DNA of 64,000 nt from Amphiscolops sp. MND2022 (lineage: Eukaryota): contig OZ076409.1 of the NCBI GenBank assembly GCA_964187785.1, forward strand, positions 7,566,001 to 7,630,000. Reading direction: 5' to 3'. Below are positions 15,198 to 40,300 of this stretch, one piece after another; the stretch's first letter is position 1; every line of letters begins with the position of its first letter. The notes below the pieces were generated by a model that worked only from the letters and a program-made list of their open reading frames with translations, ran no database searches and was not told the origin of the DNA. Made by a program: the position numbers and the translations under genes.

Positions 15198-15203
15198 GGT
15201 TTC

Positions 15204-16415: not shown

Positions 16416-16488
16416 TGCCGTTAGCGGGATCTGAACCCACGATCTCACGATCGGAAAGCTAGCGCGCATCCTATTTGGCCAACGGGTC
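16416..16488 (-). pseudogene. tRNA-like sequence (tRNA pseudogene or SINE head)
   Basis: A-box-like TGGCCAAATAGG and B-box-like GGTTCAGATCCC at tRNA spacing; imperfect stems. Confidence 0.55.
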
Positions 16489-17150: not shown

Positions 17151-17633
17151 AAACGCGAATGTTTCAATTGATTTTGTTATTTATGAATTGAAGCATCAGA
17201 ACTCGACCCACGATTGGAACCAAAAATTTTAATTTTTTTTACCAAAACCTCAATAACAGTTGCGTTTTAATTTTTCATTTTTAAAACTTGTACATTTTGT
17301 AATTTTTTGAAGTACGTTTTCTTCTAACTCTAATTATCAACGGGCTTCCGATGTAACGTTTGGTGTGAAGTTTATTGAAACATTTGTGGCACTCAAATGT
17401 GATTTAGGATTACAAAGTAATTGACTTCTTCAAATCAAACATAATTTTTTGAATAGCGTTGCAAGTGTTCCTAAAACGGATTTGAAATGGTTTAAAATCA
17501 AATTCAAGCTTTCGTCAGCATTCTAATCTCAAAACGGTTCCAGTTGAAACTGAGTAACACCATTTTAAACAATCACGTACAATAAAACCAATGCCACTAA
17601 AATCTAGAAGTTTGTGAATGAAAGTTCGTTTCT

Positions 17634-20480
17634 TCAATTTTCCTCTTCCGATTCATCTGCAAGATTGTCACTGTTTTCTTTTCGTGGTTCTTGACTACCG
17701 CTGAAGCGACCGCTGGTGTTTCCAGAGCTGCTTCCTGACTGTGATTCACTAAACTCAGAGCGAGCTATCGGATCCTCGTAGTCGAACATTAACTGTTGGA
17801 AGGGATGGATTGTTTTACTTGCTCGGAGGACAACATAACGTTGATTGTTGTCGGCAAACACAATGACATCAGTGGACTTCATATTGGCTTCCAAAACTGA
17901 GTGATGGGCAAGGCGACCCATACATCTACTATCAGGGTGGACAGGACACGTTTCCGCGGAGGCATTGATTATCCTTCGGCCAGGTCCTTTGACTTCCAGA
18001 CAAAACTCCCGTTTAACACCTTCAATGGCGGAAACTTCGTCCATTGATGTCTTGAGGAAAACCTGCCCATGGTAATCAACGACGACTTCATTTTTCTGGA
18101 AAACTCGGGTGGCAACGATTCCCCTTCCAAACTTGCTAAAAAAACCTGCGTGACTCCGGGCCATTTTTGAGATCGACATCTCTCCATAAGCAAAGTTTGA
18201 TCTTCAAACTCCATATTGCTTGCCAATCCTTTGTAATAAATCTTCTGAATTGCTATGTTCGTTTCTACTTTTGGGGTAATAAACATTGGGAGCACAAGTA
18301 TATAAACTTTTCTCAGGTCTTGGTTGCCGTCATTCTGCGTCGTCCATTTCTGTCGCTGGAAATAGTTCTTCAGTCTCATTTCCAACGAAGCAAGGTCAGT
18401 TTTCCCATTCATATGCTTGAAAAGACATGGGCACAAGCTGATTGGCGGGCATATCTCTGTCGATCCTGGTGCCTTCTCACCGCCGACTGCACGATCTGGT
18501 AGTCCAAGGCAATGTCCAGAGTCGCCCAAATTGCTCTAGTCTGGACCTTCAACTTAGGGAGTATTGCTTCAGTGTCGTTTGCGATGGGCAACACAACATG
18601 AAGGTGCCGTTCCAATTCCCTAAGCGGGCTATCACAGTGTTTCAGTAATTGTTTGAAATGATACAAACATTGAATAGTGTCTATATGCATTCTGAATTAA
18701 TGATACCAACAATGTACGTGTCACTTAGATCGACCCCCAATTGGTACCAAAAACTAGCTCTACATTATAAATTGTCCCAGTTTCCACAATTTTTCAGTAT
18801 AATTTGACTTGCTCAAAGAATGCAAAGCGGAAAACAAGACCATATTTTTAAACACATGGCGTGGAAACCAGATACAAATCTTAATACCTTGCCAACATTC
18901 ACTCAAAGGGGTATACACATTATTGCGCGTTACCATGAATGTCCTAGTTTCCACGGTTTTAAGTTTGAATTGACTTACTCAAAGAATGCAATGCGGAAAA
19001 CAAGACCATATCCTTAAACACATGGCGTGGAAACCAAATACAAATCTTAATACATTGCGAACTTTCACTCTAAAGGGTATACACATTATTGCGCGTTACC
19101 ATGAATGTCCTAGTTTCCACGGTTTTAAGTTTGAATTGACCTACTCAAAGAATGCAATGCGGAAAACAAGACCATATCTTTAAACACATGGCGTGGAAAC
19201 CAAATACAAATCTTAATACATTGCGAACTTTCACTCTAAAGTGTATACACATGATTGTGCGTTACCATAAATGTCCTAGTTTGCACGGTTTTTGAGTATA
19301 AAATGGCTCGCTTTTAAAAGTCTTCGAGGAAAAAAAGACCATATCTTTGAACACATGGCGTAAAAACCGAATACAAATCCTAACTAATTGTTTTATTCAA
19401 GGGCGTGTGATGATGATTTGTTTTTACATACCGACTCCACATATTGGTCAACAACGTGGCTAGGTCGGAAGTTGGATTTCCCAGCTGAGTTCACAAAAAA
19501 CAATTCGGTGTAGAGGATCCGATTGTCTGTGTCACTCAGCAGTCTTTCGAAAGGAGTTCCCTCACCGTGGTCCAGAAACTCGTTTCGAACACTCACGAAG
19601 TAGTCCACAAAGCCTTCCAATAACCATGGTGGATAATGTAGCACGTTTTTCTGGCGCACCTCTCAGCTACATCTATCTCAAGCCCGAAAGAGGCATTTTT
19701 GTTGTCGCATTCTTTCATCTGAACTGCTGCCTGCGCCACGGCGTGGACAGTCACATTGCTGACCTCCCGATCCAGAAAACCCAAGAAAATTAGAACGTAG
19801 GCCAGTAGACTTCGAAAGAACTCTATTTGGACCTTTTTCGTAGCCAGAATGCTCTTTCTGCAACGCGATACATTCTCTGTTTTTGTCCATTTAATGAAGG
19901 ACTCCACTGTATCCGTTTTGTAATCAGGCTTCTTCTTCTTGGCGGGAACAGTCTAAAAAAGAGAGAGTTTTCAAAAAGTGTCCTAATTATCTTTGAAACT
20001 GATAACGGAATTAAAAAGTACATTGGCTTCTAGGAAACGTAACCCATGTTTCGAACGCAAAATTTGAACAATATCTATTCAGAAGTTTTACTACACTTAC
20101 CATATCAACTGGTGGGGGCATTGGACGTTTGCTTACTACATTATCGGAGCTTGCATGTCCATTCGACTGTTTTGGAGGAATTATAATCTCAGCTAGTAAT
20201 TCGCTCTGAATGTATAAAAACTCGTTTATGACCTCTTCAGCTTCAGTCGGGAGATGTTCCGTTATTATTCCATCCTCATTGAAGCTGAATTCATGTGGCT
20301 CTTGGAGGCGGAACGGAGTGCTGTTGAGTGGCCCGCCGGATGTTTGGCTAAACATCACGGGCGATAAAGGGCGTGAACAAACCAGAAGGAGTTTGCATTT
20401 GGGTTAACGTCAGAGGCGTGGACATGTCCGCGGAAGCCGGTGTTGGAAGTGGGGGCATCGGCAAATGCAGCGAGGTTTTG
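17634..20480 (-). pseudogene. Multi-exon gene: tyrosine-recombinase-like domain followed by a PR-Set7/SETD8-like SET domain (frameshifted)
   Basis: SET: FGRGIVAT...VVDYHG...MGRLAHHS...ANMK...LRASKTIHPFQQLMFDY (17634-18179). YR-like: LLAYVLIFLGFLDREVSNVTV...LFFVNSAGK...FMLCCPSQTTLKQY. GT-AG intron ~19954-20100; second intron filled with 166-bp repeats. Confidence 0.8.
18780..19390 (+). repeat. 166-bp tandem repeat array (~3.6 units) in an intron of the SET gene
   Basis: TTTCCACGGTTTTAAGTTTGAATTGAC...AATGCGGAAAACAAGACC...; period 166 (repeated ORFs at 18820 and 18986). Confidence 0.95.
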
Positions 20481-20871
20481 TTTTGCTCCATTTAAGAAAG
20501 TTCGATTTTCTATTTTGACGGTCTGATTTTCAGAGACGATTTCAAGATATTGATTGTAGATTTCGAGTATTTGTTGATATGAATTACGATAATATCTGAT
20601 ATTTGGTAACTTGTAGTGCCATATCCGGCTGTGCAACCAAAAACCTCAGTCTTAAATGAGGCATGTAAAAAGCGTTATTACGGAAGGAGGCTAGTGTCTT
20701 CATTTTGCAATTATTCTTATTAGTGCAACTGCTCGGTAATTAGGTGACGATTAGCTGTAATTAATTTGGATTGCAACCAGTCTCGTTATCGTCTTCTTCA
20801 ACGCTCATCCCATCAACATTCACCACATAAGTTGTCTACACAATCTATTAGTTTCGAGCTTTAAGTTAAAA

Positions 20872-22260
20872 ATGCTTCTCCAAACATTCTATGAAAATGA
20901 AGTTGTGCAAATTTTGGATCCTGCGACATCAATTTGGGAATCAGCGAAAATACTTTCCTTTGTGAGCGATTGGTGTGTAAGAATTAAATGGGTCGATTGG
21001 TCTTACAATAAAAACGAAGATATCACTGTTCCCGAAGTATACAGACCTGAAAAAAAACTGGAACATTAGAAAATCACACAATCTTGTACACCAAGAAACT
21101 GTGAGCAACAAAAGACGATCAACACCACTTAGCTACAACGCTCGTCGACTGGTCAGAAACGATCAAATTTACTTTTGGCAACCAGAATATAATTGTGAAG
21201 ATAGCGAAAGATGCCAAGAGGACCGTTGCTGCGGGTCAGTTGTGATGGGTTGGGTAAAAATTAATGATCCTTTCTGTCAACAATGTTTGACAACCGACGT
21301 GGAGGACAATGATGAGTATGTTTCGTATCGCCAACTAAGAAATAAACCTTGTGTAAGAGACACTGAACCAGAAACTGATGAAACTGAACAAGATGAAGAA
21401 TCAGGATCTGACGTACATCGCCCATTCGTCAAAAAGCAAGCCCGTGTGACAAGCGCCGCACAACCGATGCCACAAGTCGACATTCTTTCCTTGCTTCCCA
21501 ATGTTGACGATGACGTTGAATTAACATATGCACCCTGTGAAAATGATATCATAAAGGTAATGTTTTCTTGCTTTTTTGCTTACAAACTTTGCCTTTGAAC
21601 TTTGATAACCCTGGATTGGCACCAATTTTTTCAAAGTATTTTTCCCACCTAATATTTGTTTAATCATTTTGTTTTCAGGTGGGATCTATTGCATCTTACG
21701 CAAATGATGATTTTAAAATCAAGAAGGTTTACTATGATGTTCAGAAGAGAAAAGCATGTGCATTCATGCAGAGCAAAAGTGCCCTGACAATGAAGTGCGC
21801 AGACCAACAATTCGTGTTGTGACAACAACATCTTCTAAAGGCAATGTAATGGATTTTAATTCGCTTCTGGAGCCCATGGACCAAGCCTATGCTTTGTTTT
21901 CTGCAAAAAAACGACTGGGCGGGATTCTCAAGAAAGAAGCATTCCTTAACCGCAACATTAGGTCCCTGTACCCCACTGACAAAAAAACTCTGTGGCTTCG
22001 AAACTGGCAATTTCAAAGAGGCCGTTAAGTATAGTGTTGCAAACCAAGAGGGACATAATTGGTGCAACGGTACATGGGATACTGTACTTGAAAGAAACTA
22101 GGATATGATCCCATGTCACGCAAGCGATGGAAAAGATGTTCTTATAAAGACAATGAGGTTCACTGAACATCGAGAATTTGGCGTGTTCACGATTCGTGTC
22201 CAGTTTTTGACGAGCCAAGGCCACTACAAAAACAGCCAATATAGAGATCTGAGTCGGAAT
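20872..22260 (+). pseudogene. Intron-containing gene with an N-terminal Tudor/Royal-family-like domain, decayed
   Basis: EVVQILDPATSIWESAKILSFVSDWCVRIKWVDWSYNKNEDITV fits a Tudor/Agenet/MBT beta-barrel pattern; acidic linker; GT-AG intron ~21557-21678. Confidence 0.55.
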
Positions 22261-22554
22261 GTACCTGTCTCAGATCCATGAAATACTCTAAAAAACTCCT
22301 AAATTTTAAAAAACTTTTTCAATTCGTGTTTGATCATATTTTGTTTGTTCAACAATTCATCTTTCATCATTATTAGTAATTATTACAATATGAGCTCCAT
22401 GACCTTGTATTCTTGAAAATTCTTGAGCAAAGTCTTAGACTATCGAATTACTTTTTTCTGAAAGCATATGATTAACAAGGCACTTGTCACGTATAGATCA
22501 ACCCCTGATTGGTACCAAAAATGATACAATCTCAGCTATTTCCGGGATTTTACT

Positions 22555-23000
22555 TGTCGTGTTTTCCATTTTTTTTCAGCATCTTTGATTTGCGCCAGAA
22601 AGCAATGCGGAAAACAAGTACACATCTTAAAAAACGTGGCATGAAATCCAAACACAAATCGTAATGCATTGCTCATATCTATTCGTCCCGGTTTCCACGG
22701 ATTTTCAGTACAATTTGACTTGCTCAAAGAATCCACTGCGGAAAACAAGACCAAATCTTTAAACATATGGCGTGGAAACCAAATACAAATCTTAAAACAT
22801 TGCGATTTTTCACTCAAAGGGGTATGTATGTATGCAGACTCCGGATCGCGCGTTACCATAAATGTCCTGGTTTCCACGGTATTTAAGTGAAAATTGATTT
22901 GCTCAAAGAAAGCAATGCGGAAAACAAGGACACATCTTTAAACACAAGGTGTGGAAACCAAGCACAAGTACTAATACGTTGCTCAATTTTATTCGAAGGG
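22555..23000 (+). repeat. Degenerate array of the 166-bp repeat (~3 units), intergenic
   Basis: Same TTTCCACGG / AATGCGGAAAACAAG / GGCGTGGAAACCAAATACAAATC blocks. Confidence 0.9.
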
Positions 23001-23096
23001 GTGTAGTCATTGTTTTCAGGAAATATTCAAACAATTTTTGTTTTTCTTTTTTCAATACTTTTTGAGTATTTTCAATCAGATAACACTTTACAAAGA

Positions 23097-26000
23097 TGAA
23101 ACAAACAGTCCTAAGAAGTGAAAACTTCTAATTACGAGTGAGAAGACTTAATGGAGGACTCTTGTGCATCTGATTGTGATTATTGACAAAATGGCTTTGG
23201 GTGATATGGACTCAAATTATCGAATTATTTGAACCGTTCTTCATCAGTTTAATGAAGAGACTCAAAACCGGACTCATTTTACTTGTGGGTTTGTGTATCT
23301 AATTGCATTTCATTTTTTTCTATGGAAAGGTTGTCAGTCTGAAAAATGTTCTACAATCAATACAATTTCACTTTGCAATAAACCTAAAAACCAGCTTTAG
23401 AAATGACTCCACTGTCAATTTGGGAAAGGAATTCTATCGAAGTGGAAAATGGGAAACTCTTCGCTAACTGTCGACTTTTTGACAGTTTTATATCCGGAAA
23501 AAAAATACCGAATAAGTTTCGGAAGTTCGAGACACTTGTTGGGGAAATGTTGACGGGGACAAATTTAAATCCAAAAGAATTCTTTCGGAGAATTGCTGTT
23601 AAAGGCCAGAAAACCCCCCCTGTATTTGTAGCAGCAAAATTGGCAAAACTACTTGTACTGCGTGGATTTAAAGACTTCCCTTGGAGCTCAGCCAGAAGAG
23701 AGTTTGTCAGTTTGTTTTTCAATATTGATGTCATACCAAATCACAATCCTTAAATGAAAGACACCCTTGCGACACCTGCAGATGTGACTCCTGGAGATGC
23801 GGCTTCTGAAGGTCAAGTCAGTGACAATTCTCTCTCAAAAGAAAGAAAGCTAGAAAAATCAGACGCCAAAAAAGTCAAACATGAACAAATTGATCCAATT
23901 AGAACAGATCCGATGTCAGAAGTTGGGTTCAACAGTTTCATGAAAAAAATCAAAAGCTCTGCAAATAAGAATAAAGATCAACGATTCACAAAAAAGAGGA
24001 CCCAAACTTAGTCAAAAAAATTGTAGAAGATCTCTTCGACAAAAGAAGATCGACTGATTAGTTCAGTCACCATTTATCTCTTGTCACGAAAACGGGTAAC
24101 ACGGAAGATGTTATAAAAGTTATTCGAACAAGACTTTAAAATGTTGGACTCGGATACAATTTAGTCCCATGCATTCGATTGGTCAAGAGGTCATCATCCG
24201 AAATTCAGTCCTACTTTACAGCAATGTGTGAGCCAGGAAGAACTTTCTCTGGTTTTCGCTGCAACCTCATAAAATGCGTGGAGACGGTGTCATACTTCTT
24301 ATTTGGAACGAAAGAACTCAATGGCCAACGAGTTGATATTTGGGGAGATGGTTGTGAAATTGGAGGTGTCGAAACAACACGAATTGCATTCCGGATACTT
24401 TCTGACAAAATAAAGTGTCAATCATCAGATGCAGTATTCTGTTTTGCTGCATACAGGGGTAAAGATGGAAGGTTCGCAATGGAACAAAACCATGAACCAA
24501 CTATAGCTGGAGTTCAAGAGTCTGGTTGGCTTTTTATGAAGACCCTGGAACTGTCAAAACGCGGAGTTGTTTTGACATACAGTGGCGATTCGCCGTTTTT
24601 AAAGAGATTGGTGCTCCGTATCACAAATGAATCAGCTAGCCCATCGAAAATGCCACTCTATGTAATGTAACAGAACTTGACTACACAACAACAAAATGTC
24701 ATCATGAAACTGGTTTACGATCTGATGTTATTATACCCTTCAGAAAGGATGTTCCAAAATCTTCCTTGGTCTTCTACGAAAATATACAATCAGTTTGTCC
24801 TGATGCCACGCATATGACAACCCGTTGTGTTGAAAATGACCTCCAAAGAATTGCACAGAAAATTATCAGAGAAAAGTATCCTAATCATGGTGTAGCAAAT
24901 CGCCAGCTTGAAGAAAACTTGACAAGAAGAGATGCGAAGAGACCATACTTTCAGTTCAACATATCTCATAGAAGTGGTTCGTGTATCGGTACTGTAGGTG
25001 CAGTATCCCTCGCAGGTGGTAGTGCTCTAGCGGTCATTGCTGATAAAGAGGAACTTGCAGGTGCGAAAGACGGTAAAATTAGTGATCTTTACCATGGTGT
25101 TTGGGTCCCGAAGATATCATTGTTGGCAGTGAAAAAAACGCAAATGTCCCTTGCGTTAATATCATAAGAAACTGGCTTCCTAAACTTTTCAATAAAGATA
25201 ACCTCAAGCAAAAAGGGTCCAATGACAAATTCATATCTGCTTTTGATGCTTGCGAACTCCTGCGATCGAGTTTAAATCAATGTGTTTTATGTCTGCGAGC
25301 AGAAGAATTCAACAGTGAAACGTTCAAAAAATGGGCTGAAGTTTATTACCAAGTCAATATCTTGATAATCGGGCATGCCGGTTTGACACCCTATAAATTG
25401 AAAATGCTGATGTTTCCTCAACTTGTTGAAAGTGGATACATAAAAAGACCATTTGATCACTTGTGTGAAGGTCTTGAAAAATCGAACCACCAAGCTAATC
25501 GTGGCTTCCAGACGAAAACAATGCGCGGAGGGGGTAAGATTTATCGCAAGGGACCACTATTCCTCGAGTCGTCTTTTTCTTTCTTGAAATTTTTAAGATT
25601 CGCAGTTGAAGTTGAAGACAAAGGGTCGGACGCTGAACCAACTTCTAAGATTATCATGGAACCTGAACAAAACGCAACAACAGAGGTCTACTTTGATGAC
25701 CATAATGTGACTGGAAACAAAGAACTATCAGACAGTTTCGAAAAGTACTTGAAACAGCGTAATGAGTATACTTCATAGTGCAACAAAAGTGATGGGCATT
25801 GACGTTCCGGGACCTGAGTACCTTGATATTTGCCGCAAAGAACCACCGGTAACAACTATCGCCATTGAATGTCAAGAAAATCCTTTGAGTGGATTAAGAT
25901 TTTGTCTGCTTTGTCGCTTGGGTACTTGGAAAAAACATACTCTAACATATGACATGGTGAAACAATTGATTATCAATATGGGAGGAACTGTTCTAGAAAA

Positions 26001-26445
26001 TGAACAAGCTGACGTGTTGATGAGCACCCATTCACAGCTCCCCAATTGTTTTGTTCTTGTCAAGGACGAAAAAGACCTAATCTTAGGTACCGGTTCCACA
26101 GAGGAAATTAACGATATGAAGAAACCAAGGAAAAGAGGGTCATCAGCAACACAGGAGGGTGGAAATGAACCATCACAATATTCCAAAATAGCGAAAGAGT
26201 TCGCAGCTGGGGGCTTCAAATTCTTGAACATCGATTTTGTAGCTGAAGTTGACGAGAAAAAAATGCTGATTGACCCGGAGCCATACTTTCTTCAGCCCGG
26301 ATCCAAACTTGTTGAAAATCGTGTCAACGACAAAAGACCTTTGTTTTTGGATCAATGCAGTGGAAAAACACTGGGTGAAAGTGTATCTGCGATTGTCGCT
26401 CTCAAGAGATACCGTGAGGGCACTTTTAAACAACTTTCGTTTTGA
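23097..26445 (+). pseudogene. DDE transposase (CMC superfamily; Chapaev/Transib/RAG1-like motifs) with a C-terminal BRCT-like domain, frameshifted
   Basis: VDIWGDG (D1 ~24347), LTYSGDSPFL (D2 ~24587), CPDATHMTTRCVE, LTPYKLKML...CEGLEKSNH (E ~25476). BRCT-like: PLSGLRFCLL...VKQLIINMGGTV...FLNIDFVAE...IDPEPYFL. 5' boundary approximate. Confidence 0.8.
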
Positions 26446-26649
26446 TTTACTGTTCTCTTCTAATTCATATGTTACCCGAACTTGAAACTATTCAATAAAT
26501 TCTTCAAAAAATAAGTATTTTCATTAGGTTTAATGTGATGCTCCTACGAAACTAAGGAAATGTTTTACATGTCATAGATTGGTATCAAAGAGCACACAAT
26601 ATTGGGCTCCGTTTCGGCGAACTTTCGTTTGTCTTCGTTTCCACAAATT

Positions 26650-26850
26650 GATTGCGCGTTACCACAAATGAACTAGTTTCCACGGTTTTGAGTTTGAATT
26701 GACTTACTCAAAGAATGCAATGCGGAAAACAAGATCATATCATTAAACACGTGGCGTGGAAACCAAATACAAATCCTAATACGTTGCGAACTTTCACTCA
26801 AAAGGGTATACACATGATTGTGCGTTACCATAAATGTCCTGGTTTCAATT
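26650..26850 (+). repeat. ~1.2 units of the 166-bp repeat between the convergent transposase and JmjC genes
   Basis: Sequence identity to the 18780-19390 units. Confidence 0.9.
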
Positions 26851-27101
26851 GCGTTTTTACCTGGCGGAAATTCAATGATGAAGTATACTCCTGATTTTTC
26901 TTCTATTCTTCTTTTTTGGAAATTATTGCATTAGACGTCCAAATGTTTCAAAGCATGTTTTGAACAATTAAGGTTTTTTTTCAATTCGTTTTCAAATTAA
27001 ACTTCTTGCGCTCGTCACTGAATAAAACAGGTTGTCAGGTATTTTGCAGTTTTTTGTCACTTATTTGTATGACACTGAAAATCTAAATCTGAATCTACAG
27101 T

Positions 27102-30100
27102 TTAATCTATATCTAAAATACCTAGTTCAAGGGGGATTGAGCGTATTCCCGTAATGACAGCAACAAGAGGACAGCGTTTCGGGTGCAAAGATGGATCTAC
27201 CATCTTTGCCGGCAAGACAGTTCTTCCCCTGCCTTTAACATGGGTAATCATCATTGCGGGTCTTGACTCGAGTTCTAGTAAATCCGTTGTCGTCATTACT
27301 TCCTCGTACGCTTTCGTGTAGGGGTCAACAGCGATGGGCACAGTCTCTGGAACAGTAAGAGCCTTACTGAGGTCAGTATTCTTTCGGGATGCTCGCTCAA
27401 ATAATTGCGGCTGCTGCTTGGTGGCTCACGCAGTGTCACTGAAGCTCTTTTTTTTTGCCCAATACGATGTGAAGTCTTTCAGGACTGAAATCGGGTAGCA
27501 CCTGTAAAACGTAAAATTCAACGTAAACTTAAATCGGGTAGCACCTGTGAAACGTAAAAATCAACGTAAACTTTCAACCTGGAGAGCAAACTTTCAATTG
27601 AAAAATACGAAATTTTTATGGTAAAGTTCTTGATTATTATAAACTTATCGACGTAGAAGCACAAAATTCCACTCAGTTGTGTTTTACTTGCGTGTATATC
27701 AGTCAAACTTGAATGTAGAGAATGACCAATATGTGTTTTGAAGTCTTGAAAAAAGCAAGATTTATTCATAAACATAAGTTTTCGAACTAGAAAATGACCT
27801 TCGATTGGAAACAAATAGGAAATGATTGAAAATGGAAAATGGAAAAATGGAAAATTGAAAATTTGTTACCAAACAAAGACTGAAGGCTTAACAATCTTAC
27901 TTCACGGGCGGTGTGTTCATTGTATATTGATTGCACTGTGCTGTACATCGACACCAGGCGTCGACAGAGTCGAGGGAACAGCTTTTTGGCAATACGGTAC
28001 ATCAGAAGTACCAGCATCTCTGGAACATCAGGAAATTTGTCATCGGATCTTCTCGGGAACTCGACGATGATTGAGTGTCTTATCATGGGCAGGTGCCCAA
28101 ACGCCAGGAAGTTTGTTCCCAACGAAATGGCATTGCCTTTCTTAAGAACGAAGTGGAGGAAATTTGCGAGCATGACTAGAACATCTCCAGCTGTGACATG
28201 CAACCGCAAACATCCCTCTTCCAGCTGGTCGATGTTCCCGAAGAATGTTGGCCTGAAAAAACATCGAAGTTGCTTTTCTAATTTTTTGACATTAATAGAA
28301 GAAAACTAAAAGAAAAGTTTAATTATTTGAAAAGAGACGTTAAATGCTTGCTTGTTGTTTTCCATGACCAAAAAATAATAGTCAAAAAGTATAGTTGTTT
28401 GTTTTTGAAAATAGAACAGTATTCTTGAAGAAAATAAAGTTGGTGTGCTAGTTAAGTTTTGTTACTTACGTAGTGTCGTTCTCAGCATTCGACCATCTTT
28501 CAAAAATGCTGAGATTTTTTTTCGACGGTTTCACTAAAAAGAAAATCTTCTCTCCAGTTAGAACTGTGTAAAACACAGACGTCGAAGAATAACCCTGATG
28601 CCACGTCGTGTGCGCAGAATCTTGAGTGACCAGGACATAATAGGAAGTAGAACAAGAATAAGGCTCGGTTCTCGACTTCCGATTTCCCTGTCGGCCAAGT
28701 GGTTGATGGAGTTGTCAGCCACCATCTCGGGTACTGTTTATATGGCCTTGGGGAGTGTCCTGACATCGATGACGTTTAAAGAGTAATATTGACTGCCTGG
28801 ATGACAGTTGGCCAGCTCCACGAAAAACTCTTCATACGTCATTTCTCGTGTCTGTAAAAACATCTATTAAATGATGATGCTAGGCAATGTTCTAATTCAT
28901 GTTATCAACAGTGTACTTGTCACAGGTAGATCGGCCCTGGATTGGTACCAAAACGAACTCGACATAACTGTCCCAGTTTCCACGGATTTTCAGTATAATT
29001 TGACTTGCTCAAAGAACACAATGCGGAAAACAAGACCATATCTTTAAACACATGGCGTGGAAACCAAATACAAATCTTAATACATTACGAACTTTCACTC
29101 TAAAGGGTATACACATTATTGCGCGTTACCATGAATGTCCTAGTTTCCACGGTTTTAAGTTTGAATTGACTTACTCAAAGAATGCAATGCGGGAAACAAG
29201 ACCAATTCTTTAACACATGGCGTGGAAATAAATACAAATCCTAATACATTGCAGAACCTCACTTGAAGGGGTATACCCATGGTTTGTGTTTTGGAAAAAC
29301 TAAATTTGTTTTTTCACTAAATGCTAAACATGGTTCAAACGAGTAGGAAGTGTTTTTTACCTCTCCGATTCTGGCTGACTTGACTTCAATTGGAGCATCA
29401 GGTTCAGCAAAGTTGACCGGTCGCAGAAGCCGTTTGATCTCCGCGACGAAGCCTTTTTTCGCGTAGAATTTTTGGACTTTCAGTCCTCTGCAGTGCTTGG
29501 CTCCGTTTCTCCAAATCAAGGGGACACCATGTCGAAGAAGATGACCAAGGTGTTCGGTTTGATTGTCATGGGGACCCTGCCACTCAGCGTAGGAAAATCG
29601 ACAATCCAGAGGCACGTTTTCGCAAAACGCGAAGTGCTCTTGGGTGCCAAATGGGGCCGCTGGAGTCCCAGAATTGAATGTCAAATCAAGTGGCATCGGT
29701 GGTTGGGCAATTTGACATTTGACTGATCTCGCGATGTGGTTCCTCAGGCTGTACCCGTACCCGAATGAGGTCCCACACGAAACGCACAAGTGACGGCTTC
29801 TTCTTTTTCCTTTCGCAGCTTCTGTAATTTCAAAGACATTTTTTCAAATGAAATTCGGAAATCTTTTCTTTCATGAATTTCATTTTTAGTATGACCCATG
29901 ATTGGAACCAAAAATCTTCCAAAGATTTCATGAATGCTTTCATGGTATGACCCATGATTGGAACTGAAATCCTTTCCAAAAAATTGTGTTTTTTAGACCT
30001 TCCCTTTCACATCAGAAAAACATTTTCCTTCTTTTTTCTATTGCATACGATAATCGGTTCAAGACCGTAAAATATTTCAAAACATGAACAAACAAAATCC

Positions 30101-31345
30101 TGGAAACAATCTGAACACTAACGGTATTGGTTTATTCTAACTTTTTCTCCAGCAGCAATCTTTTCTTGTTGTTTCGTGCAGTATTTGGTTCTTCTTTGAT
30201 AGCGCTCTTTACTTTTTTTTTGTGAAAATCTGACCACATTTCTCGCACGTCAAATTCTGGGCAACTTGTTCCTGCTTGCTGACACTTTTGCATCCCGGAA
30301 GATGACGGGTTAAGTGCCATTTCTTCCAGCATCGTAGTCGCAATTCGGACACGGGAAACCTAAAGCCTTTTGAATTATACGAGATGAAGAACTCAAATAA
30401 AAAACCATACCTATACATACAAAATACATACCAAAATCAGATTGTTTTCCACGAGTTACAAATTTGATAGGTTTCATTTAGATTGCTCAAAACTTTGAAA
30501 AATGGTATACATGATATACTGATCCACGTGATGTTTGATTTGTCAAACTTTTTATCAATCCAGTTTCAATTACAAAAAAGGGAGATTGTCGCTTGTCAAT
30601 TGTCAAAACGAGAACAAGAACGAGTGAATGGAAGTCTTACGTTTTTTAGGTGGCGGAGTTGTATCTCGAAATTCGTCACAGAGTTGTCTTTTTCGGTTTT
30701 CTGGCAAACCAGGGCAAGTGCGGGCATGAACAGAAAGGGCTTCTCGAGTGGGGGCATAATGGTCGCAAGCACCGATTGTGCAGAGATGACGTGAATAATA
30801 AAACAAAGATGAAAATATATACAATAAATGAAGACTCATACACAGGGGTGTTCGAGCCATATTTGCGTGAAAATTATTGGCAATTAAGGGATTCAAATAG
30901 ACGATTGGAAGTACCGAATTAATGGAAAAAGTTGAAAGACGCCCTCAAATTTTACCATAATTACCATGGCATATTTCAATTCTGCAAACGAAGATAAATG
31001 AATCTGTTCTAAAGTATAAAAAACTCCTTTTTTGAACACCCCTGTTCATACAGCCTCAAAATTTCAATACAAATAAAACCAGAACAAAGTAAAGAAACGT
31101 TCATCAAAACTTCAAACATGTTTCACATTCGCAGTTGAATTTACCCGTTTCAGCAGTTTGATAGTTTTTGACCTATTTCACTGATAGTCAAGAAAAAGTA
31201 ACTCAGAAATTAACAACTTACCAAGGGACAGTTCTGATGATGAGTCAGATGAGTCCATGCGGGATCTAAAGATCTGAGAAGTGCTGGGTCCGCTGGGTCC
31301 GCCAGCTTGCTCATAAGTACTTGCAGGTGTTTTCTTCGATTTCGG
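27102..31345 (-). pseudogene. Multi-exon zinc-finger + JmjC (KDM2/KDM7-like) gene, the only complete copy
   Basis: Exons ~31345-31222, ~30800-30641 (C2HC finger, PPPKKRK NLS), ~30359-30135 (fingers), ~29840-29361 (CVSC...H finger, GVPLIWRN), 28851-28470 (YVLVTQDSAHTTWHQGYSSTSVFYTVLTGEKIFFLVKP), ~28252-27901 (VTAGDVLVMLANFLHFV...GTNFL), ~27502-27102. Confidence 0.85.
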
Positions 31346-34300
31346 CTGTAACAATTTGAAAATGTGAATTGCAAAAGAGTAAATATCAAGAAATTTAAAT
31401 TATTTCAAATAACAAAGTCAAAATTGTTTACGAGAAAGTTTGGATCTTTCCGGTTCATCCCCCCATCGATTTAAGTCCCCCAGTAGTGATTAATCGAAAG
31501 TTTTATGAATTAACTTTTAAAAAAGTATTCCGGTTCATCCCCCCATCGATTTAATTCCCCAGTATTTATTAAATAAAAGTTCTATAAATTAACTTTTTAA
31601 AAAGTATAAAAGTATATCATTAAACATATATTTTTTGGAAGAGAATCTGCGTAAAACAATTTGAAAGTTATCAGGACACTGTTCGAAAAAACTGCCTTGC
31701 ACTTTGAACCAGAATCTGCTTCTAAATTGTAAAATCAATTACAGTACGGGGGCTTTTGTAACGACCCGAAGGGGCAGTTGATTTTAAACTGATAGTTTTT
31801 TGATAAACTCCAAAAACAGTTTCTGGGAATTTGGGATTAAAATTGAAACAAGTAGAAGTCAAGAGAATTGTTGGATTGTGAAAGATTTTGGGCATAAAAG
31901 TGTCTAATTTTTTTCTGTGAACTCAAAATCTTTCTAGTTTGTTTTTTGAAGTTTTCATTCTCATATTATTTGATCTGATCTTATTGGGGATTCCATTTGG
32001 CCCAAGCTTGGAACCAATCTTTAAGAAATCCATAACCAAAATCAATTTAAAAACAATTTTTCAACCAATAATTTATTTCCGAAAACGAATATATCAACTT
32101 TCCATTATGATTGGCTCCGGGTTATATCCGGTGATTAGCTGAGTTTATTTTCGGCTGCTGGCTGTTGGGTGTCTGCTAAACTTTGAGTTGTTAATGAGAG
32201 ATTTTAAGATTTGGCTTGTTAATGAGATTGAGAGAGTCAGTTAACAGTACAGTCTGAACGGTAGGAAAACAAGTTCGACAATGAAAACAGCCGGTCGGTC
32301 AGTTGATGTGCGTGATACGCGCGAATGATACGAGCCGCTGATTAGCCAATAGGAATCACCCAAATGGAACAGTCATGTTTGATACGAGTTTCTGTTACGC
32401 GCCGCTGATTATCAAGGAAAATACTCACGATTGTAACAGTTATGATTTTGATACGAGCCGCTGATACCCGACGCTGGTAAGCCACGGTTGAAACTGTGAA
32501 CTTTCAAGCGATGACCGATAAGGCAATTATAATCATCAGGGGTGCGCATTATTGTATTTATATTTATTGATACGACTTCACCAAAAAATAATAGTCAAAA
32601 AGTATAGTTGTTTGTTTTTGAAAATAGAACAGTATTCTTGAAGAAAATAAAGTTGGTGTGCTAGTTAAGTTTTGTTACTTACGTAGTGTCGTTCTCAGCA
32701 TTTGACCATCTTTCAAAAATGCTGAGATTTTTTTTCGACGGTTTCACTAAAAAGAAAATCTTCTCTCCAGTTAGAACTGTGTAAAACACAGACGTCGAAG
32801 AATAATCCTGATGCCACGTCGTGTGCGCAGAATCTTGAGTGACCAGGACATAATAGGAAGTAGAACAAGAATAAGGCTCGGTTCTCGACTTACGATTTCC
32901 CTGTCGGCCAAGTGGTTGATGGAGTTGTCAGCCACCATCTCGGGTACTGTGTATATGGCCTTGGGGAGTGTCCTGACATCGATGACGTTTAAAGGGTAAT
33001 ATTGACTGCCTGGATGACAGTTGGCCAGCTCCACGAAAAACTCTTCATACGTCATTTCTCGTGTCTGTAAAAACATCTATTAAATGATGATGCTAGGCAA
33101 TGTTCTAATTCATGTTATCAACAGTGTACTTGTCACAGGTAGATCGGCCCTGGATTGGTACCAAAACGAACTCGACATAACTGTCCCAGTTTCCACGGAT
33201 TTTCAGTATAATTTGACTTGCTCAAAGAACACAATGCGGAAAACAAGACCATATCTTTAAACACATGGCGTGGAAACCAAATACAAATCTTAATACATTA
33301 CGAACTTTCACTCTAAAGGGTATACACATTATTGCGCGTTACCATGAATGTCCTAGTTTCCACGGTTTTAAGTTTGAATTGACTTACTCAAAGAATGCAA
33401 TGCGGGAAACAAGACCATATCTTTAAACACATGGCCTGGAAACCAAATACAAATCTTAATACATTACGAACTTTCACTCTAAAGGGTATACACATTATTG
33501 CGCGTTACCATGAATGTCCTAGTTTCCACGGTTTTAAGTTTGAATTGACTTACTCAAAGAATGCAATGCGGGAAACAAGACCAATTCTTTAAACACATGG
33601 CGTGGAAATAAATACAAATCCTAATACATTGCAGAACCTCACTTGAAGGGGTATACCCATGGTTTGTGTTTTGGAAAAACTAAATTTGTTTTTTCACTAA
33701 ATGCTAAACATGGTTCAAACGAGTAGGAAGTGTTTTTTACCTCTCCGATTCTGGCTGACTTGACTTCAATTGGAGCATCAGGTTCAGCAAAGTTGACCGG
33801 TCGCAGAAGCCGTTTGATCTCCGCGACGAAGCCTTTTTTCGCGTAGAATTTTTGGACTTTCAGTCCTCTGCAGTGCTTGGCTCCGTTTCTCCAAATCAAG
33901 GGGACACCATGTCGAAGAAGATGACCAAGGTGTTCGGTTTGATTGTCATGGGGACCCTGCCACTCAGCGTAGGAAAATCGACAATCCAGAGGCACGTTTC
34001 CGCAAAACGCGAAGTGCTCTTGGGTGCCAAATGGGGCCGCTGGAGTCCCAGAATTGAATGTCAAATCAAGTGGCATCGGTGGTTGGGCAATTTGACATTT
34101 GACTCATCTCGCGATGTGGTTCCTCAGGCTGTACCCGTACCCGAATGAGGTCCCACACGAAACGCACAAGTGACGGCTTCTTCTTTTTCCTCTCGCAGCT
34201 TCTGTAATTTCAAAGACATTTTTTTCAAATGAATTTCGGAAATCTTTTCTTTCATGAATTTCTTTTTTAGTATGACCCATGATTGGAACCAAAAATCTTC

Positions 34301-37300
34301 CAAAGATTTCATGAATGCTTTCATGGTATGACCCATGATTGGAACTGAAATCCTTTCCAAAAAATTGTGTTTTTTAGACCTTCCCTTTCACATCAGAAAA
34401 ACATTTTCCTTCTTTTTTCTATTGCATACGATAATCGGTTCAAGACCGTGAAATATTTCAAAACATGAACAAACAAAGTCCTGGAAACAATCTGAACACT
34501 AACGGTATTGGTACATTCTAACTTTTTCTCCAGCAGCAATCTTTTCTTGTTGTTTCGTGCAGTATTTGGTTCTTCTTTGATAGCGCTCTTTACTTTTTTT
34601 TGTGAAAATCTGACCACATTTCTCGCACGTCAAATTCTGGGCAACTTGTTCCTGCTTGCTGACACTTTTGCATCCCGGAAGATGACGGGTTAAGTGCCAT
34701 TTCTTCCAGCAACGTAGTCGCAATTCGGACACGGGAAACCTAAAGCCTTTTGAATTATACGAGATGAAGAACTCAAATAAAAAACCATACCTATACATAC
34801 AAAATACATACCAAAATCAGATTGTTTTCCACGAGTTACAAATTTGATAGGTTTCATTTAGATTGCTCAAAACTTTGAAAAATGGTATACATGATATACT
34901 GATCCACGTGATGTTTGATTTGTCAAACTTTTTATCAATCCAGTTTCAATTACAAAAAAAGGGAGATTGTCGCTTGTTTAATTGTCAAAACGAGAACAAG
35001 AACGAGTGAATGGAAGTCTTACGTTTTTTAGGTGGCGGAGTTGTATCTCGAAATTCGTCACAGAGTTGTCTTTTTCGGTTTTCTGGCAAACCAGGGCAAG
35101 TGCGGGCATGAACAGAAAGGGCTTCTCGAGTGGGGGCATAATGGTCGCAAGCACCGATTGTGCAGAGATGACGTGAATGACAAAACAAAGATGAAAATAT
35201 ATACAATAAATGAAGACTCATACACAGGGGTGTTCGAGCCATATTTGCGTGAAAATTATTGGCAATTAAGGGATTCAAATAGAGGATTGGAAGTACCGAA
35301 TTAATGGAAAAAGTTGAAAGACGCCCTCAAATTTTACCATAATTACCATGGCATATTTCAATTCTGCAAACGAAGATAAATGAATCTGTTCTAAAGTATA
35401 AAAAACTCCTTTTTTGAACACCCCTGTTCATACAGCCTCAAAATTTCAATACAAATAAAACCAGAACAAAGTAAAGAAACGTTCATCAAAACTTCAAACA
35501 TGTTTCACATTCGCAGTTGAATTTACCCGTTTCAGCAGTTTGATAGTTTTTGACCTATTTCACTGATAGTCAAGAAAAAGTAACTCAGAAATTAACAACT
35601 TACCAAGGGACAGTTCTGATGATGAGTCAGATGAGTCCATGCGGGATCTAAAGATCTGAGAAGTGCTGGGTCCGCTGGGTCCGGCAGCTTGCTCATAAGT
35701 ACTTGCAGGTGTTTTCTTCGATTTCGGCTGTAACAATTTGAAAATGTGAATTGCAAAAGAGTAAATATCAAGAAATTTAAATTAGTTCAAATAACAAAGT
35801 CAAAATTGTTTACGAGAAAGTTTGGATCTTTCCGGTTCATCCCCCCATCGATTTAAGTCCCCTAGTAGTGATTAATCAAAAGTTTTATGAATTAACTTTT
35901 AAAAAAGTATTCCGGTTCATCCCCCCATCGATTTAATTCCCCAGTATTTATTAAATAAAAGTTCTATAAATTAACTTTTTAAAAAGTATAAAAGTATATC
36001 ATTAAACATATATTTTTTGGAAGAGAATCTGCGTAAAACAATTTGAAAGTTATCAGGACACTGTTCGAAAAAACTGCCTTGCACTTTGAACCAGAATCTG
36101 CTTCTAAATTGTAAAATCAATTACAGTACGGGGGCTTTTGTAACGACCCGAAGGGGCAGTTGATTTTAAACTGATAGTTTTTTGATAAACTCCAAAAACA
36201 GTTTCTGGGAATTTGGGATTAAAATTGAAACAAGTAGAAGTCAAGAGAATTGTTGGATTGTGAAAGATTTTGGGCATAAAAGTGTCTAATTTTTTTCTGT
36301 GAACTCAAAATCTTTCTAGTTTGTTTTTTGAAGTTTTCATTCTCATATTATTTGATCTGATCTTATTGGGGATTCCATTTGGCCCAAGCTTGGAACCAAT
36401 CTTTAAGAAATCCATAACCAAAATCAATTTAAAAACAATTTTTCAACCAATAATTTATTTCCGAAAACGAATATATCAACTTTCCATTATGATTGGCTCC
36501 GGGTTATATCCGTTGATTAGCTGAGTTTATTATCGGCTGCTGGCTGTTGGGTGTCTGCTAAACTTTGAGTTGTTAATGAGAGATTTTAAGATTTGGCTTG
36601 TTAATGAGATTGAGAGAGTCAGTTAACAGTACAGTCTGAACGGTAGGAAAACAAGTTCGACAATGAAAACAGCCGGTCGGTCAGTTGATGTGCGTGATAC
36701 GCGCGAATGATACGAGCCGCTGATTAGCCAATAGGAATCACCCAAATGGAACAGTCATGTTTGATACGAGTTTCTGTTACGCGCCGCTGATTATCAAGGA
36801 AAATACTCACGATTGTAACAGTTATGATTTTGATACGAGCCGCTGATACCCGACGCTGGTAAGCCACGGTTGAAACTGTGAACTTTCAAGCGATGACCGA
36901 TAAGGCAATTATAATCATCAGGGGTGCGCATTATTGTATTTATGTTTATTGATACGACTTCACCAAAAAATAATAGTCAAAAAGTATAGTTGTTTGTTTT
37001 TGAAAATAGAACAGTATTCTTGAAGAAAATAAAGTTGGTGTGCTAGTTAAGTTTTGTTACTTACGTAGTGTCGTTCTCAGCATTCGACCATCTTTCAAAA
37101 ATGCTGAGATTTTTTTTCGACGGTTTCACTAAAAAGAAAATCTTCTCTCCAGTTAGAACTGTGTAAAACACAGACGTCGAAGAATAATCCTGATGCCACG
37201 TCGTGTGCGCAGAATCGTGAGTGACCAGGACATAATAGGAAGTAGAACAAGAATAAGGCTCGGTTCTCGACTTACGATTTCCCTGTCGGCCAAGTGGTTG

Positions 37301-40300
37301 ATGGAGTTGTCAGCCACCATCTCGGGTACTGTGTATATGGCCTTGGGGAGTGTCCTGACATCGATGACGTTTAAAGGGTAATATTGACTGCCTGGATGAC
37401 AGTTGGCCAGCTCCACGAAAACTCTTCATACGTCATTTCTCGTGTCTGTAAAAACATCTATTAAATGATGATGCTAGGCAATGTTCTAATTCATGTTATC
37501 AACAGTGTACTTGTCACAGGTAGATCGGCCCTGGATTGGTACCAAAACGAACTCGACATAACTGTCCCAGTTTCCACGGATTTTCAGTATAATTTGACTT
37601 GCTCAAAGAACACAATGCGGAAAACAAGACCATATCTTTAAACACATGTCCTGGAAACCAAATACAAATCTTAATACATTACGAACTTTCACTCTAAAGG
37701 GTATACACATTATTGCGCGTTACCATGAATGTCCTAGTTTCCACGGTTTTAAGTTTGAATTGACTTACTCAAAGAATGCAATGCGGGAAACAAGACCAAT
37801 TCTTTAAACACATGGCGTGGAAATAAATACAAATCCTAATACATTGCAGAACCTCACTTGAAGGGGTATACCCATGGTTTGTGTTTTGGAAAAACTAAAT
37901 TTGTTTTTTCACTAAATGCTAAACATGGTTCAAACGAGTAGGAAGTGTTTTTTACCTCTCCGATTCTGGCTGACTTGACTTCAATTGGAGCATCAGGTTC
38001 AGCAAAGTTGACCGGTCGCAGAAGCCGTTTGATCTCCGCGACGAAGCCTTTTTTCGCGTAGAATTTTTGGACTTTCAGTCCTCTGCAGTGCTTGGCTCCG
38101 TTTCTCCAAATCAAGGGGACACCATGTCGAAGAAGATGACCAAGGTGTTCGGTTTGATTGTCATGGGGACCCTGCCACTCAGCGTAGGAAAATCGACAAT
38201 CCAGAGGCACGTTTCCGCAAAACGCGAAGTGCTCTTGGGTGCCAAATGGGGCCGCTGGAGTCCCAGAATTGAATGTCAAATCAAGTGGCATCGGTGGTTG
38301 GGCAATTTGACATTTGACTCATCTCGCGATGTGGTTCCTCAGGCTGTACCCGTACCCGAATGAGGTCCCACACGAAACGCACAAGTGACGGCTTCTTCTT
38401 TTTCCTCTCGCAGCTTCTGTAATTTCAAAGACATTTTTTTCAAATGAATTTCGGAAATCTTTTCTTTCATGAATTTCTTTTTTAGTATGACCCATGATTG
38501 GAACCAAAAATCTTCCAAAGATTTCATGAATGCTTTCATGGTATGACCCATGATTGGAACTGAAATCCTTTCCAAAAAATTGTGTTTTTTAGACCTTCCC
38601 TTTCACATCAGAAAAACATTTTCCTTCTTTTTTCTATTGCATACGATAATCGGTTCAAGACCGTAAAATATTTCAAAACATGAACAAACAAAGTCCTGGA
38701 AACAATCTGAACACTAACGGTATTGGTACATTCTAACTTTTTCTCCAGCAGCAATCTTTTCTTGTTGTTTCGTGCAGTATTTGGTTCTTCTTTGATAGCG
38801 CTCTTTACTTTTTTTTGTGAAAATCTGACCACATTTCTCGCACGTCAAATTCTGGGCAACTTGTTCCTGCTTGCTGACACTTTTGCATCCCGGAAGATGA
38901 CGGGTTAAATGCCATTTCTTCCAGCAACGTAGTCGCAATTCGGACACGGGAAACATAAAGCCTTTTGAATTATACGAGATGAAGAACTCAAATAAAAAAC
39001 CATACCTATACATACAAAATACATACCAAAATCAGATTGTTTTCCACGAGTTACAAATTTGATAGGTTTCATTTAGATTGCTCAAAACTTTGAAAAATGG
39101 TATACATGATATACTGATCCACGTGATGTTTGATTTGTCAAACTTTTTATCAATCCAGTTTCAATTACAAAAAAAGGGAGATTGTCGCTTGTCAATTGTC
39201 AAAACGAGAACAAGAACGAGTGAATGGAAGTCTTACGTTTTTTAGGTGGCGGAGTTGTATCTCGAAATTCGTCACAGAGTTGTCTTTTTCGGTTTTCTGG
39301 CAAACCGGGGCAAGTGCGGGCATGAACAGAAAGGGCTTCTCGAGTGGGGGCATAATGGTCGCAAGCACCGATTGTGCAGAGATGACGTGAATAACAAAAC
39401 AAAGATGAAAATATATACAATAAATGAAGACTCATACACCGGGGTGTTCGAGCCATATTTGCGTGAAAATTATTGGCAATTAAGGGATTCAAATAGAGGA
39501 TTGGAAGTACCGAATTAATGGAAAAAGTTGAAAGACGCCCTCAAATTTTACCATAATTACCATGGCATATTTCAATTCTGCAAACGAAGATAAATGAATC
39601 TGTTCTAAAGTATAAAAAACTCCTTTTTTGAACACCCCTGTTCATACAGCCTCAAAATTTCAATACAAATAAAACCAGAACAAAGTAAAGAAACGTTCAT
39701 CAAAACTTCAAACATGTTTCACATTCGCAGTTGAATTTACCCGTTTCAGCAGTTTGATAGTTTTTGACCTATTTCACTGATAGTCAAGAAAAAGTAACTC
39801 AGAAATTAACAACTTACCTAGGAACAGTTCTGATGATGAGTCAGATGAGTCCATGCGGGATCTAAAGATCTGAGAAGTGCTGGGTCCGCTGGGTCCGGCA
39901 GCTTGCTCATAAGTACTTGCAGGTGTTTTCTTCGATTTCGGCTGTAACAATTTGAAAATGTGAATTGCAAAAGAGTAAATATCAAGAAATTTAAATTAGT
40001 TCAAATAACAAAGTCAAAATTGTTTACGAGAAAGTTTGGATCTTTCCGGTTCATCCCCCCATCGATTTAAGTCCCCTAGTAGTGATTAATCAAAAGTTTT
40101 ATGAATTAACTTTTAAAAAAGTATTCCGGTTCATCCCCCCATCGATTTAATTCCCCAGTATTTATTAAATAAAAGTTCTATAAATTAACTTTTTAAAAAG
40201 TATAAAAGTATATCATTAAACATATATTTTTTGGAAGAGAATCTGCGTAAAACAATTTGAAAGTTATCAGGACACTGTTCGAAAAAACTGCCTTGCACTT

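What the first reader, a model, noticed from the sequence alone, without database searches (positions are those of the whole stretch)
18780..37870. Element-specific 166-bp repeat arrays in introns and intergenic spacers
The same unit, always in + orientation, occurs at ~18780-19390 (SET intron), 22555-23000, 26650-26850, 28975-29280 (JmjC intron), 33190-33660 and 37570-37870. I saw none outside the TIRs in this window. The period of 166 bp matches chromatosome length. Each unit carries AATGCGGAAA, which also occurs near both ends of the element (~15467, 15564, 15736, 44574). Inference: landing pads for element-encoded proteins or nucleosome-phasing arrays, analogous to VANC target repeats in VANDAL non-coding DNA.
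Basis: partly seen in the sequence, partly recalled or inferred. Interest (0 to 1): 0.75.

Follow-up and report, generated by a model that had tools for sequence, protein, structure and literature searches.

The report
Repeat arrays inside a giant transposon
A 29-kilobase jumping gene that carries its own histone-modifying enzymes also carries short arrays of a 166-base repeat and a second short DNA word, all pointing the same way and kept at the same non-coding places in other copies, which look like docking sites for its own proteins, although no binding has been shown.

Summary
The arrays are real: 15 units, all on +, none outside the element in this window. Three of the six arrays are copies from a recent 4.2-kb triplication, so there are four independent sites. 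The host is a 29,345-bp DNA transposon (21-bp TIR, 2-bp TSD, RAG1/Transib-fold transposase) inserted in a LINE. It carries SETD8-like and finger+PHF8-like genes, and this copy is frameshifted. Spurious ORFs from other genomic copies show the arrays at the same sites (12 of 19 JmjC-exon ORFs read into the array), and array ORFs share contig lengths with family genes (11 versus 1 for sister families). AATGCGGAAA is in only 8 of 15 units but is the only unit 10-mer repeated at the element's ends. Chromatosome phasing is unsupported; the unit looks like a ~33-bp multimer. Best reading (0.5): family-specific docking sites for element-encoded proteins, working like VANC/TnpA targets. Main rival (0.3): a neutral passenger homogenised by conversion. 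Genome-wide confinement and binding are untested because no genome was held.

The parts
15426..44770 (.). Host DNA transposon, 29,345 bp, CA...TG ends, 2-bp target duplication GT, inserted in the zinc knuckle of a LINE ORF1
   Evidence: TIR alignment; the flanks read IQQGIRKIRCY and RCQKFGHVSSNC on the minus strand; LINE EN/RT downstream
15426..15446 (+). Left TIR, 21 bp
44750..44770 (-). Right TIR, 21 bp, 1 mismatch to the left
15565..15745 (-). Two subterminal AATGCGGAAA copies (15565, 15736)
44573..44582 (-). Right subterminal AATGCGGAAA copy
18732..19425 (+). Array A1: head motif at 18732 plus 3.7 units (18773-19383), in the predicted SET-gene intron (about 18693-19431, gene on minus)
   Evidence: orthologous ORFs P0131 (10 members) and P0153
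22500..23022 (+). Array A2: head motif at 22500 plus 3 diverged units (one shortened, one with a 12-13-bp insert), intergenic upstream of the transposase
   Evidence: orthologous ORF cluster P0154 (15 members) keeps the insert
26572..26846 (+). Array A3: decayed head plus about 1.2 units, between the transposase stop and the 3' end of the JmjC gene
   Evidence: P0132 has the same 3' flank
28933..29296 (+). Array A4: head motif plus 2 units, in the predicted JmjC-gene intron (about 28852-29360, gene on minus)
   Evidence: 12 of 19 exon-containing relatives read into it
33146..33676 (+). Array A5: duplicate of A4 with one extra unit (exact 166-bp indel)
37527..37891 (+). Array A6: duplicate of A4, 2 units
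15827..43880 (+). Second motif GACCC-N3-ATTGG(A/T)ACCAAAA: 19 hits (11 independent: 15827, 16774, 17205, 18732, 22500, 27796, 28933, 29893, 29949, 41391, 41662), all +, all non-coding, none outside the element
   Evidence: shuffle mean 0.11; 27 of 27 profile hits at E<=5 on + and inside the element
28367..41171 (+). Recent tandem triplication of a 4.2-4.4-kb segment (98-99% identical), followed by a 2.2-kb duplication (39734-44132)
17637..20403 (-). SET-domain gene (SETD8/PR-Set7-like C-terminal domain), frameshifted; upstream part unassigned
   Evidence: Pfam SET E 5e-9; SETD8 chains best in PDB, E 2e-4
23403..26445 (+). DDE transposase with RAG1/Transib fold and a weak C-terminal BRCT-like region; frameshifted in this copy
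27790..29843 (-). Gene with a C2H2-like finger exon followed by a PHF8/KDM7-like JmjC domain; frameshifted
   Evidence: PHF8 E 5e-12 (duplicate exon 32682-32927); zf-C2H2_6 E 0.02 here and 0.0025 in P0145, both below the Pfam cut-off

Best explanation
The arrays are an old, integral part of a family of giant cut-and-paste transposons. They are one layer of a strand-polarised set of cis sites in the element's non-coding DNA. Each module is a 21-bp head motif followed by a TTTCCAC site, and at four places it has grown into tandem 166-bp units, each with three related G(C/T)GGAAA cores. Shown: the anatomy, retention at the same sites in other copies, gain or loss of whole units, near-identity of units in different arrays, and one core word shared with both ends. 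Inferred: slippage or unequal exchange and gene conversion keep the arrays uniform, and the clustered sites bind an element-encoded protein. The likeliest binders are the transposase's N-terminal helical region (for the word shared with the ends) and the finger fused to the JmjC domain. That binding would aim the element's PHF8-like demethylase and SETD8-like methylase at its own chromatin, or help load transposase on a 29-kb element. It would work like VANC or TnpA target clusters, but through histones rather than DNA methylation.
For: 15 of 15 units and 19 of 19 head motifs are on + and inside the TIRs. The 11 independent heads are all non-coding although about 43% of the non-redundant element is coding (p about 0.002, using my own approximate exon list). 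AATGCGGAAA is the only one of the unit's 166 10-mers with two or more hits in the terminal 800 bp (3 hits), with 0 in the rest of the element and 0 outside. 12 of 19 exon-containing relatives read from the JmjC exon into the last unit. A1-, A2- and A3-specific features recur on other contigs. 11 of 34 array-ORF contigs match a listed family-gene contig by length, against 1 of 34 for two sister transposase clusters (p 0.014; transposase only, 7 versus 1, p 0.008). A diverged unit type is joined to a 65%-identical JmjC exon in P0171. There is an exact 166-bp indel between 99%-identical duplicates. Units A1u2 and A5u2, in introns of different genes, are 98% identical, while array ends are 72-86%. 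Four distant relatives each hold a different tandem repeat in one shared transposase intron, and in L005 the repeat recurs at three non-coding places, all on one strand. The cargo enzymes are present.
Against: There are no binding, expression or chromatin data. No element protein was shown to be a sequence-specific binder: the finger is below the Pfam cut-off, and YR and BEN were not confirmed. The shared word is exact in only 8 of 15 units, and the terminal copies are not arranged as an inverted pair. A2, A3 and the last units are decayed, and this copy's genes are frameshifted. 15 of 25 unit-like hits have flanks I could not place, so some units may lie outside the family. The window's unit and head are absent from the 14 distant loci. 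L002 has a short intron at the same site with no array, and the repeats in L004 and L008 were not seen elsewhere in their loci, so those may be ordinary intronic minisatellites. Everything shown is also compatible with a passenger that is copied with the element.
Confidence: 0.5

Rival explanations
1. Neutral passenger. A small module (head plus first unit) was copied to several non-coding places in the ancestral element, grew by slippage, is homogenised by conversion and rides along with the family without a function.
For: First units of A1, A2 and A4 share diagnostic bases and a common head, as expected if a module was copied. Tandem duplication is common in this family. Non-coding location follows from selection on the genes. 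Array ends are decayed.
Against: It does not explain the unit word at both ends, the seven independent lone heads with the same polarity, or similar layouts with unrelated sequence in relatives.
Confidence: 0.3
2. An independent genome-wide repeat (HINE/Helentron, MITE or satellite, like the oyster Cg170-bearing HINEs) that inserted into the element.
For: Short arrays with conserved left and right flanks in fixed orientation are the HINE layout (PMC7492417, passages). A1, A2 and A4 share head and tail. 15 of 25 unit-like hits have unplaced flanks.
Against: There is no subTIR/IR pair (best inverted score 6-7), no TSD, no conserved 3' hairpin and no microsatellite. All four sites and all 11 heads have one polarity. 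There is no unit in 34 kb of repeat-rich flank. Array ORFs are about as abundant as the element's gene ORFs (up to 9-10 contigs per sequence) and share their contigs.
Confidence: 0.1
3. Nucleosome-phasing arrays: the 166-bp period matches a chromatosome (length recalled, not from a call) and positions nucleosomes in introns and spacers.
For: The period itself; whole-unit gain or loss keeps the register.
Against: There is no 10-11-bp WW periodicity (74% of 500 shuffles as high). GCG anchors at 54, 86, 118 and 152 and subunit alignments (2% of shuffles as good) suggest a 32-34-bp subunit, although plain autocorrelation shows nothing (52%). The arrays are only 1-4 units long, A2 has 131- and 179-bp spacings, and relatives use 56-99-bp units.
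Confidence: 0.06

Closest known systems
VANC target repeats of Arabidopsis VANDAL (Mutator-like) transposons (PMC5735166; passages read)
   Same: Motifs arrayed in one orientation in introns, intergenic and terminal non-coding DNA; tandem repeats with gain and loss of units; repeats differ between related elements.
   Different: Different superfamily (RAG1/Transib-fold transposase, 2-bp TSD). No VANC-like protein was found. The cargo is SETD8-like and finger+PHF8-like. There is no sign of CpG methylation, and binding is not shown.
Spm/CACTA TnpA and its clustered motifs (bioRxiv 10.64898/2026.08.24.746577; abstract and sections 4 and 6 read)
   Same: Same broad CMCT clade; a family-specific ~10-bp word near both ends. 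The paper places the DNA-binding domain in the transposase in animals and fungi.
   Different: TnpA binding and hypomethylation are confined to the termini, whereas here most sites are internal arrays. No tandem-HTH domain was tested.
CMCT-clade transposons with epigenetic cargo, e.g. fungal TET/JBP-bearing EnSpm, ESTA and Plavaka (PMC12730594; passages read)
   Same: CA..TG ends, short TSD, RAG1-like transposase, carriage of a chromatin-modifying dioxygenase.
   Different: The cargo here is a histone demethylase-like and a histone methylase-like gene, not TET/JBP. No internal arrays are mentioned in the passages seen.
HINE (non-autonomous Helentron) elements with central 166-bp Cg170 repeats in oyster (PMC7492417; passages read)
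   Same: Short arrays of a ~166-bp unit between conserved flanks in fixed orientation.
   Different: No subTIR, IR, microsatellite or conserved 3' hairpin. The Cg170 sequence itself was not compared, so the shared length may be coincidence.

Membership tests
CMCT clade (EnSpm/Mirage/Chapaev/Transib and kin) | 5'-CA..TG-3' termini | tested here: met
CMCT clade | 2-5-bp target site duplication | tested here: met
   GT on both sides; the LINE frame is continuous across the site; one insertion only
CMCT clade | DDE transposase of RAG1/Transib fold | tested here: met
   Top Foldseek hits are RAG1 (E 1.4e-5, prob 1.00) and HzTransib for the model of close relative P0001, pLDDT 64; GDG, SGD and EGLEK in the consensus
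CMCT clade | C(2)C and H(3-4)H motifs between second D and E | tested here: inconclusive
   Alignment has C347, H352 and H568 conserved but no clear C-x2-C or H-x3/4-H
EnSpm versus Mirage versus other named lineage | Placement in a transposase tree with reference families | not testable with these tools
   No Repbase; no transposase Pfam family hit
VANC-type anti-silencing system | Same-orientation motif clusters in non-coding DNA, as tandem repeats with gain/loss | tested here: met
VANC-type anti-silencing system | Repeats differ between related families | tested here: met
   Diverged unit type with a 65%-identical exon; unrelated repeats in distant relatives
VANC-type anti-silencing system | High motif density confined to the family genome-wide | tested here: inconclusive
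   No genome; contig-length proxy supports it; 15 of 25 flanks unplaced
VANC-type anti-silencing system | Element-encoded protein binds the motif and removes silencing | not testable with these tools
   Needs binding and chromatin assays
VANDAL/VANC family itself | Mutator-like transposase and a VANC gene | tested here: not met
   Transposase model matches RAG1/Transib; no VANC-like Pfam hit among the element ORFs scanned
HINE/Helentron | subTIR plus complementary IR, microsatellite, 3' palindrome | tested here: not met
   only A4 has a 10-bp tail palindrome, A1 and A3 none. Old decayed copies could have lost these
HINE/Helentron | Dispersed genome-wide at TT sites | not testable with these tools
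   No genome held
BEN-solo (Insv) site and binder | Match to TCYAATHRGAA and an element-encoded BEN domain | tested here: inconclusive
   Heads differ from the consensus at 2-3 of 11 positions (consensus in PMC4281564); candidate exon 30135-30359 gave no BEN hit with a low-confidence model

The most novel reading that the evidence does not exclude
A multi-copy giant CMCT transposon, probably of an invertebrate animal (inferred, host not determined), runs its own sequence-addressed histone-editing system. A finger-JmjC (PHF8-like) protein and a SETD8-like methylase are brought to family-specific arrays and head motifs in its introns, spacers and ends, and related families use different addresses. 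This would be a histone-level counterpart of VANC outside plants.
Probability: 0.3. Interest if true: 0.85.

Novelty: new variant of a known kind. Interest (0 to 1): 0.6.

Why it matters
Sequence-specific self-activation of transposons through clustered internal motifs is shown in the papers I read only for plant elements, and there it acts on DNA methylation. Here a different superfamily pairs such a layout with histone methylase-like and demethylase-like cargo in a host without evident CpG depletion. If the sites are bound, this gives a defined protein-motif pair with which to test how very large transposons keep their genes active without disturbing the host. If they are not bound, the finding still documents a 29-kb transposon family with SET and JmjC cargo that five literature searches did not find described (Repbase and subscription journals not searched).

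Tried and rejected
No genome was held. No sequencing run was listed, so no read-depth test could be made; that blank is not evidence. Exact unit patterns found nothing in viral, metagenome or prokaryote contigs, and transposase relatives were absent from viral and prokaryote contigs. A structured RNA is rejected: no Rfam hit at E<=1 in 15000-45000, unit folding z -0.87, no tRNA genes. Coding is rejected: the period is not a multiple of 3 and all frames have stops. The inverted pair GTTTCCACG/CGTGGAAAC in the unit is real, but the overall inverted score is not above shuffles (23%). The YR domain was not confirmed by Pfam or the Atlas. The BEN idea found no support from a low-confidence model (pTM 0.26, best Z 4.2), which does not exclude it. 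The Atlas gave only hits under 0.85 for the transposase N-terminus, and a sequence search of PDB with the transposase profile found nothing. P0177 (1738 aa, no matched stretch) was dropped from the 26 hits before counting. The p-values depend on an assumed genome size, so I rely. Control clusters P0009 and P0011 were left out because nothing showed that they share the assembly. Earlier scan notes held nothing on this genome or sequence. The Cg170 sequence was not compared. No supplementary files were read, and motif tables there could bear on the comparisons.
Full report
1. Observation. Repeat finders place a 166-bp unit at all six stated sites. A profile search gives 15 units, all on the + strand, and nothing else in the 64 kb. 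Self-comparison shows that 28367-41171 is a tandem triplication at 98-99% identity. The last three arrays are therefore copies of one intronic site, holding 2, 3 and 2 units; the alignment shows an exact 166-bp indel among 45 substitutions. There are four independent sites. Exact AATGCGGAAA occurs 11 times (shuffle mean 0.23): in 8 of 15 units on +, and at 15565, 15736 and 44573 on minus. It is the only unit 10-mer with two or more hits in the terminal 800 bp, and it has none in the rest of the element or outside.

2. The host element. A 21-bp TIR with one mismatch bounds 15426-44770, flanked by GT on both sides. The flanks are the two halves of a LINE ORF1 zinc knuckle, which fixes the ends. 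The transposase (23403-26445) is frameshifted here. Its closest cluster is 92% identical and has 128 members, the 15 listed all on long contigs, and several sister clusters of 72-93 members exist. A model of the close relative P0001 matches RAG1 and Transib. With CA..TG ends and a 2-bp TSD this fits the CMCT clade as defined in PMC12730594 (passages). The C(2)C/H(3-4)H motifs are unclear, and no named lineage could be assigned. The cargo is a SETD8-like SET gene and a gene with a weak C2H2-like finger exon followed by a PHF8/KDM7-like JmjC domain. The host is a eukaryote, probably an invertebrate animal (inference from the introns, LINEs and these enzymes). CpG o/e is 0.8-1.1 in the element, and 3 of 20 transitions among the duplicates fall at CpG, so heavy CpG methylation is not indicated.

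3. Anatomy. A1 and A4-A6 lie in predicted introns of two minus-strand genes; A2 and A3 are intergenic on either side of the plus-strand transposase. Polarity therefore follows the element, not the host gene. It has 19 hits at up to 3 mismatches against 0.11 expected, all on + and all inside the element. A profile built from seven heads without arrays finds 27 of 27 hits on + and inside the element, including the array heads, A4's only weakly. Eleven copies are independent and none is in my approximate coding set, which covers about 43%. Some lone heads are followed by the TTTCCAC site that starts the unit, so the arrays look like local expansions of a wider module. Each unit holds three related cores: GTTTCCAC, GCGGAAAAC and GTGGAAAC. 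GCG anchors 32, 32 and 34 bp apart and subunit alignments that about 2% of shuffles reach suggest a 32-34-bp subunit, while ungapped autocorrelation shows nothing and there is no 10-11-bp WW signal. Middle units of different arrays are up to 98% identical, while end units are 66-86%, which is the pattern of ongoing conversion (inference).

4. Other copies. No genome or reads were available, so I used ORFs that gene callers had predicted across these non-coding stretches on public contigs. Of 19 listed proteins containing the JmjC-gene finger exon, 12 read through the donor into the last unit. The other 7 end or change frame earlier and say nothing, and only 15 of 83 members of the main cluster were listed. 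A1-, A2- and A3-specific ORFs recur: P0131 (10 members), P0154 (15 members, with A2's insert) and P0132 (A3's 3' flank). The lists are partial, so this fits full linkage but does not prove it, and haplotype duplicates or the window's own locus (P0159 is 100% identical) may be included. Of 25 unit-like hits in the 50% library, 6 have flanks from this element or its JmjC gene, 4 have no flank and 15 have flanks I could not place. One diverged unit type is joined to a 65%-identical JmjC exon (P0171), so at least some diverged units belong to sister elements.

5. Distant relatives. Fourteen metagenome loci with 32-48% identical transposases lack the unit and the head. L004, L005, L006 and L008 each carry a different tandem repeat (99, 56-60, 61-69 and 78 bp) in one shared transposase intron, and L005's repeat recurs at both ends of its contig, always on one strand, and in no other locus. 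L002 has a short intron there without an array. No SET or JmjC cargo was detected in these short loci. This suggests a recurring design but could reflect ordinary intronic minisatellites.

6. Mechanism. The best reading (0.5) is clustered docking sites for element-encoded proteins, kept uniform by conversion. The word shared with the ends points to the transposase; the finger fused to a demethylase points to self-directed chromatin editing, as plant REF6 does with its fingers (recalled, not from a call). Anatomy, linkage and dynamics are shown; binding and any chromatin effect are inferred. The rivals are a neutral passenger (0.3), an independent HINE or satellite (0.1; hallmarks from PMC7492417 not met) and nucleosome phasing (0.06). 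The head resembles the Insv BEN site (PMC4281564, passages) at 8-9 of 11 positions, but no BEN domain could be shown.

7. Comparison. It works like the VANC targets described in PMC5735166 (passages) in layout and dynamics, and like the TnpA motifs of bioRxiv 10.64898/2026.08.24.746577 (abstract, sections 4 and 6) in clade and terminal word. It is not a VANDAL, and membership in either system is untested at the binding step. Five searches for a DNA transposon with SET and JmjC cargo found no description (listings only; Repbase and subscription journals are not covered). Earlier scan notes on fungal elements with motif arrays are unchecked leads and were not used as support.

8. Verdict. The feature is real and family-integral, with fewer independent arrays than reported, one extra motif system, and no support for phasing. 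It is a new variant of a known kind; interest 0.6.

Noticed in passing
window 15426-44770: The element itself, a 29-kb RAG1-fold DNA transposon with SETD8-like and finger+PHF8-like genes and a 128-member transposase cluster, was not found described and may matter more than the arrays.
   Followed up: partly
window 20870-22280 (+) and 30130-31400 (-): Two further spliced, frameshifted genes of the element with no family assignment; the last exon of the second is helical and was tested for BEN without result.
   Followed up: partly
P0001, P0195, P0171: Other copies show internal rearrangements with junctions at or near array ends: P0001 ends in sequence just 3' of A2, P0195 jumps from the last unit to the final JmjC exon, and P0171 joins an exon to a unit. 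The arrays may promote recombination.
   Followed up: no
window 31448-31607, 32311-32476, 27484-27573, 41671-41936: Other short internal repeats of the element (79-80 bp x2, GATACG-rich 67-69-bp spaced copies, 43 bp x2, ~200 bp x2).
   Followed up: no
window 16420-16490 and 16897-16970: Two tRNA-like stretches by eye (possible SINE heads) inside the element; ARAGORN and Rfam found nothing.
   Followed up: partly
L003 2352-5463 and L010: A 3.1-kb transposase segment of a distant relative lies between 48-bp inverted arms, while the N-terminal exon lies outside the left arm (1759-2103); arrangement unexplained.
   Followed up: no
window 59916-60695: MITE-like element with long arms built of 11-bp CTTGCCAAGAT repeats.
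   Followed up: no
window 11835-11949/53950-54063 and 12362-12560/46747-46920/52981-53053: Two small dispersed repeats outside the element, each in both orientations.
   Followed up: no
window 1787-5902, 10223-11723, 12900-15425, 49000-52900, 48192-48391: Gag-like ORF, LINE RT with a (TAG)38 tail, the interrupted LINE, a Gypsy-type pol, and a 200-N assembly gap.
   Followed up: no
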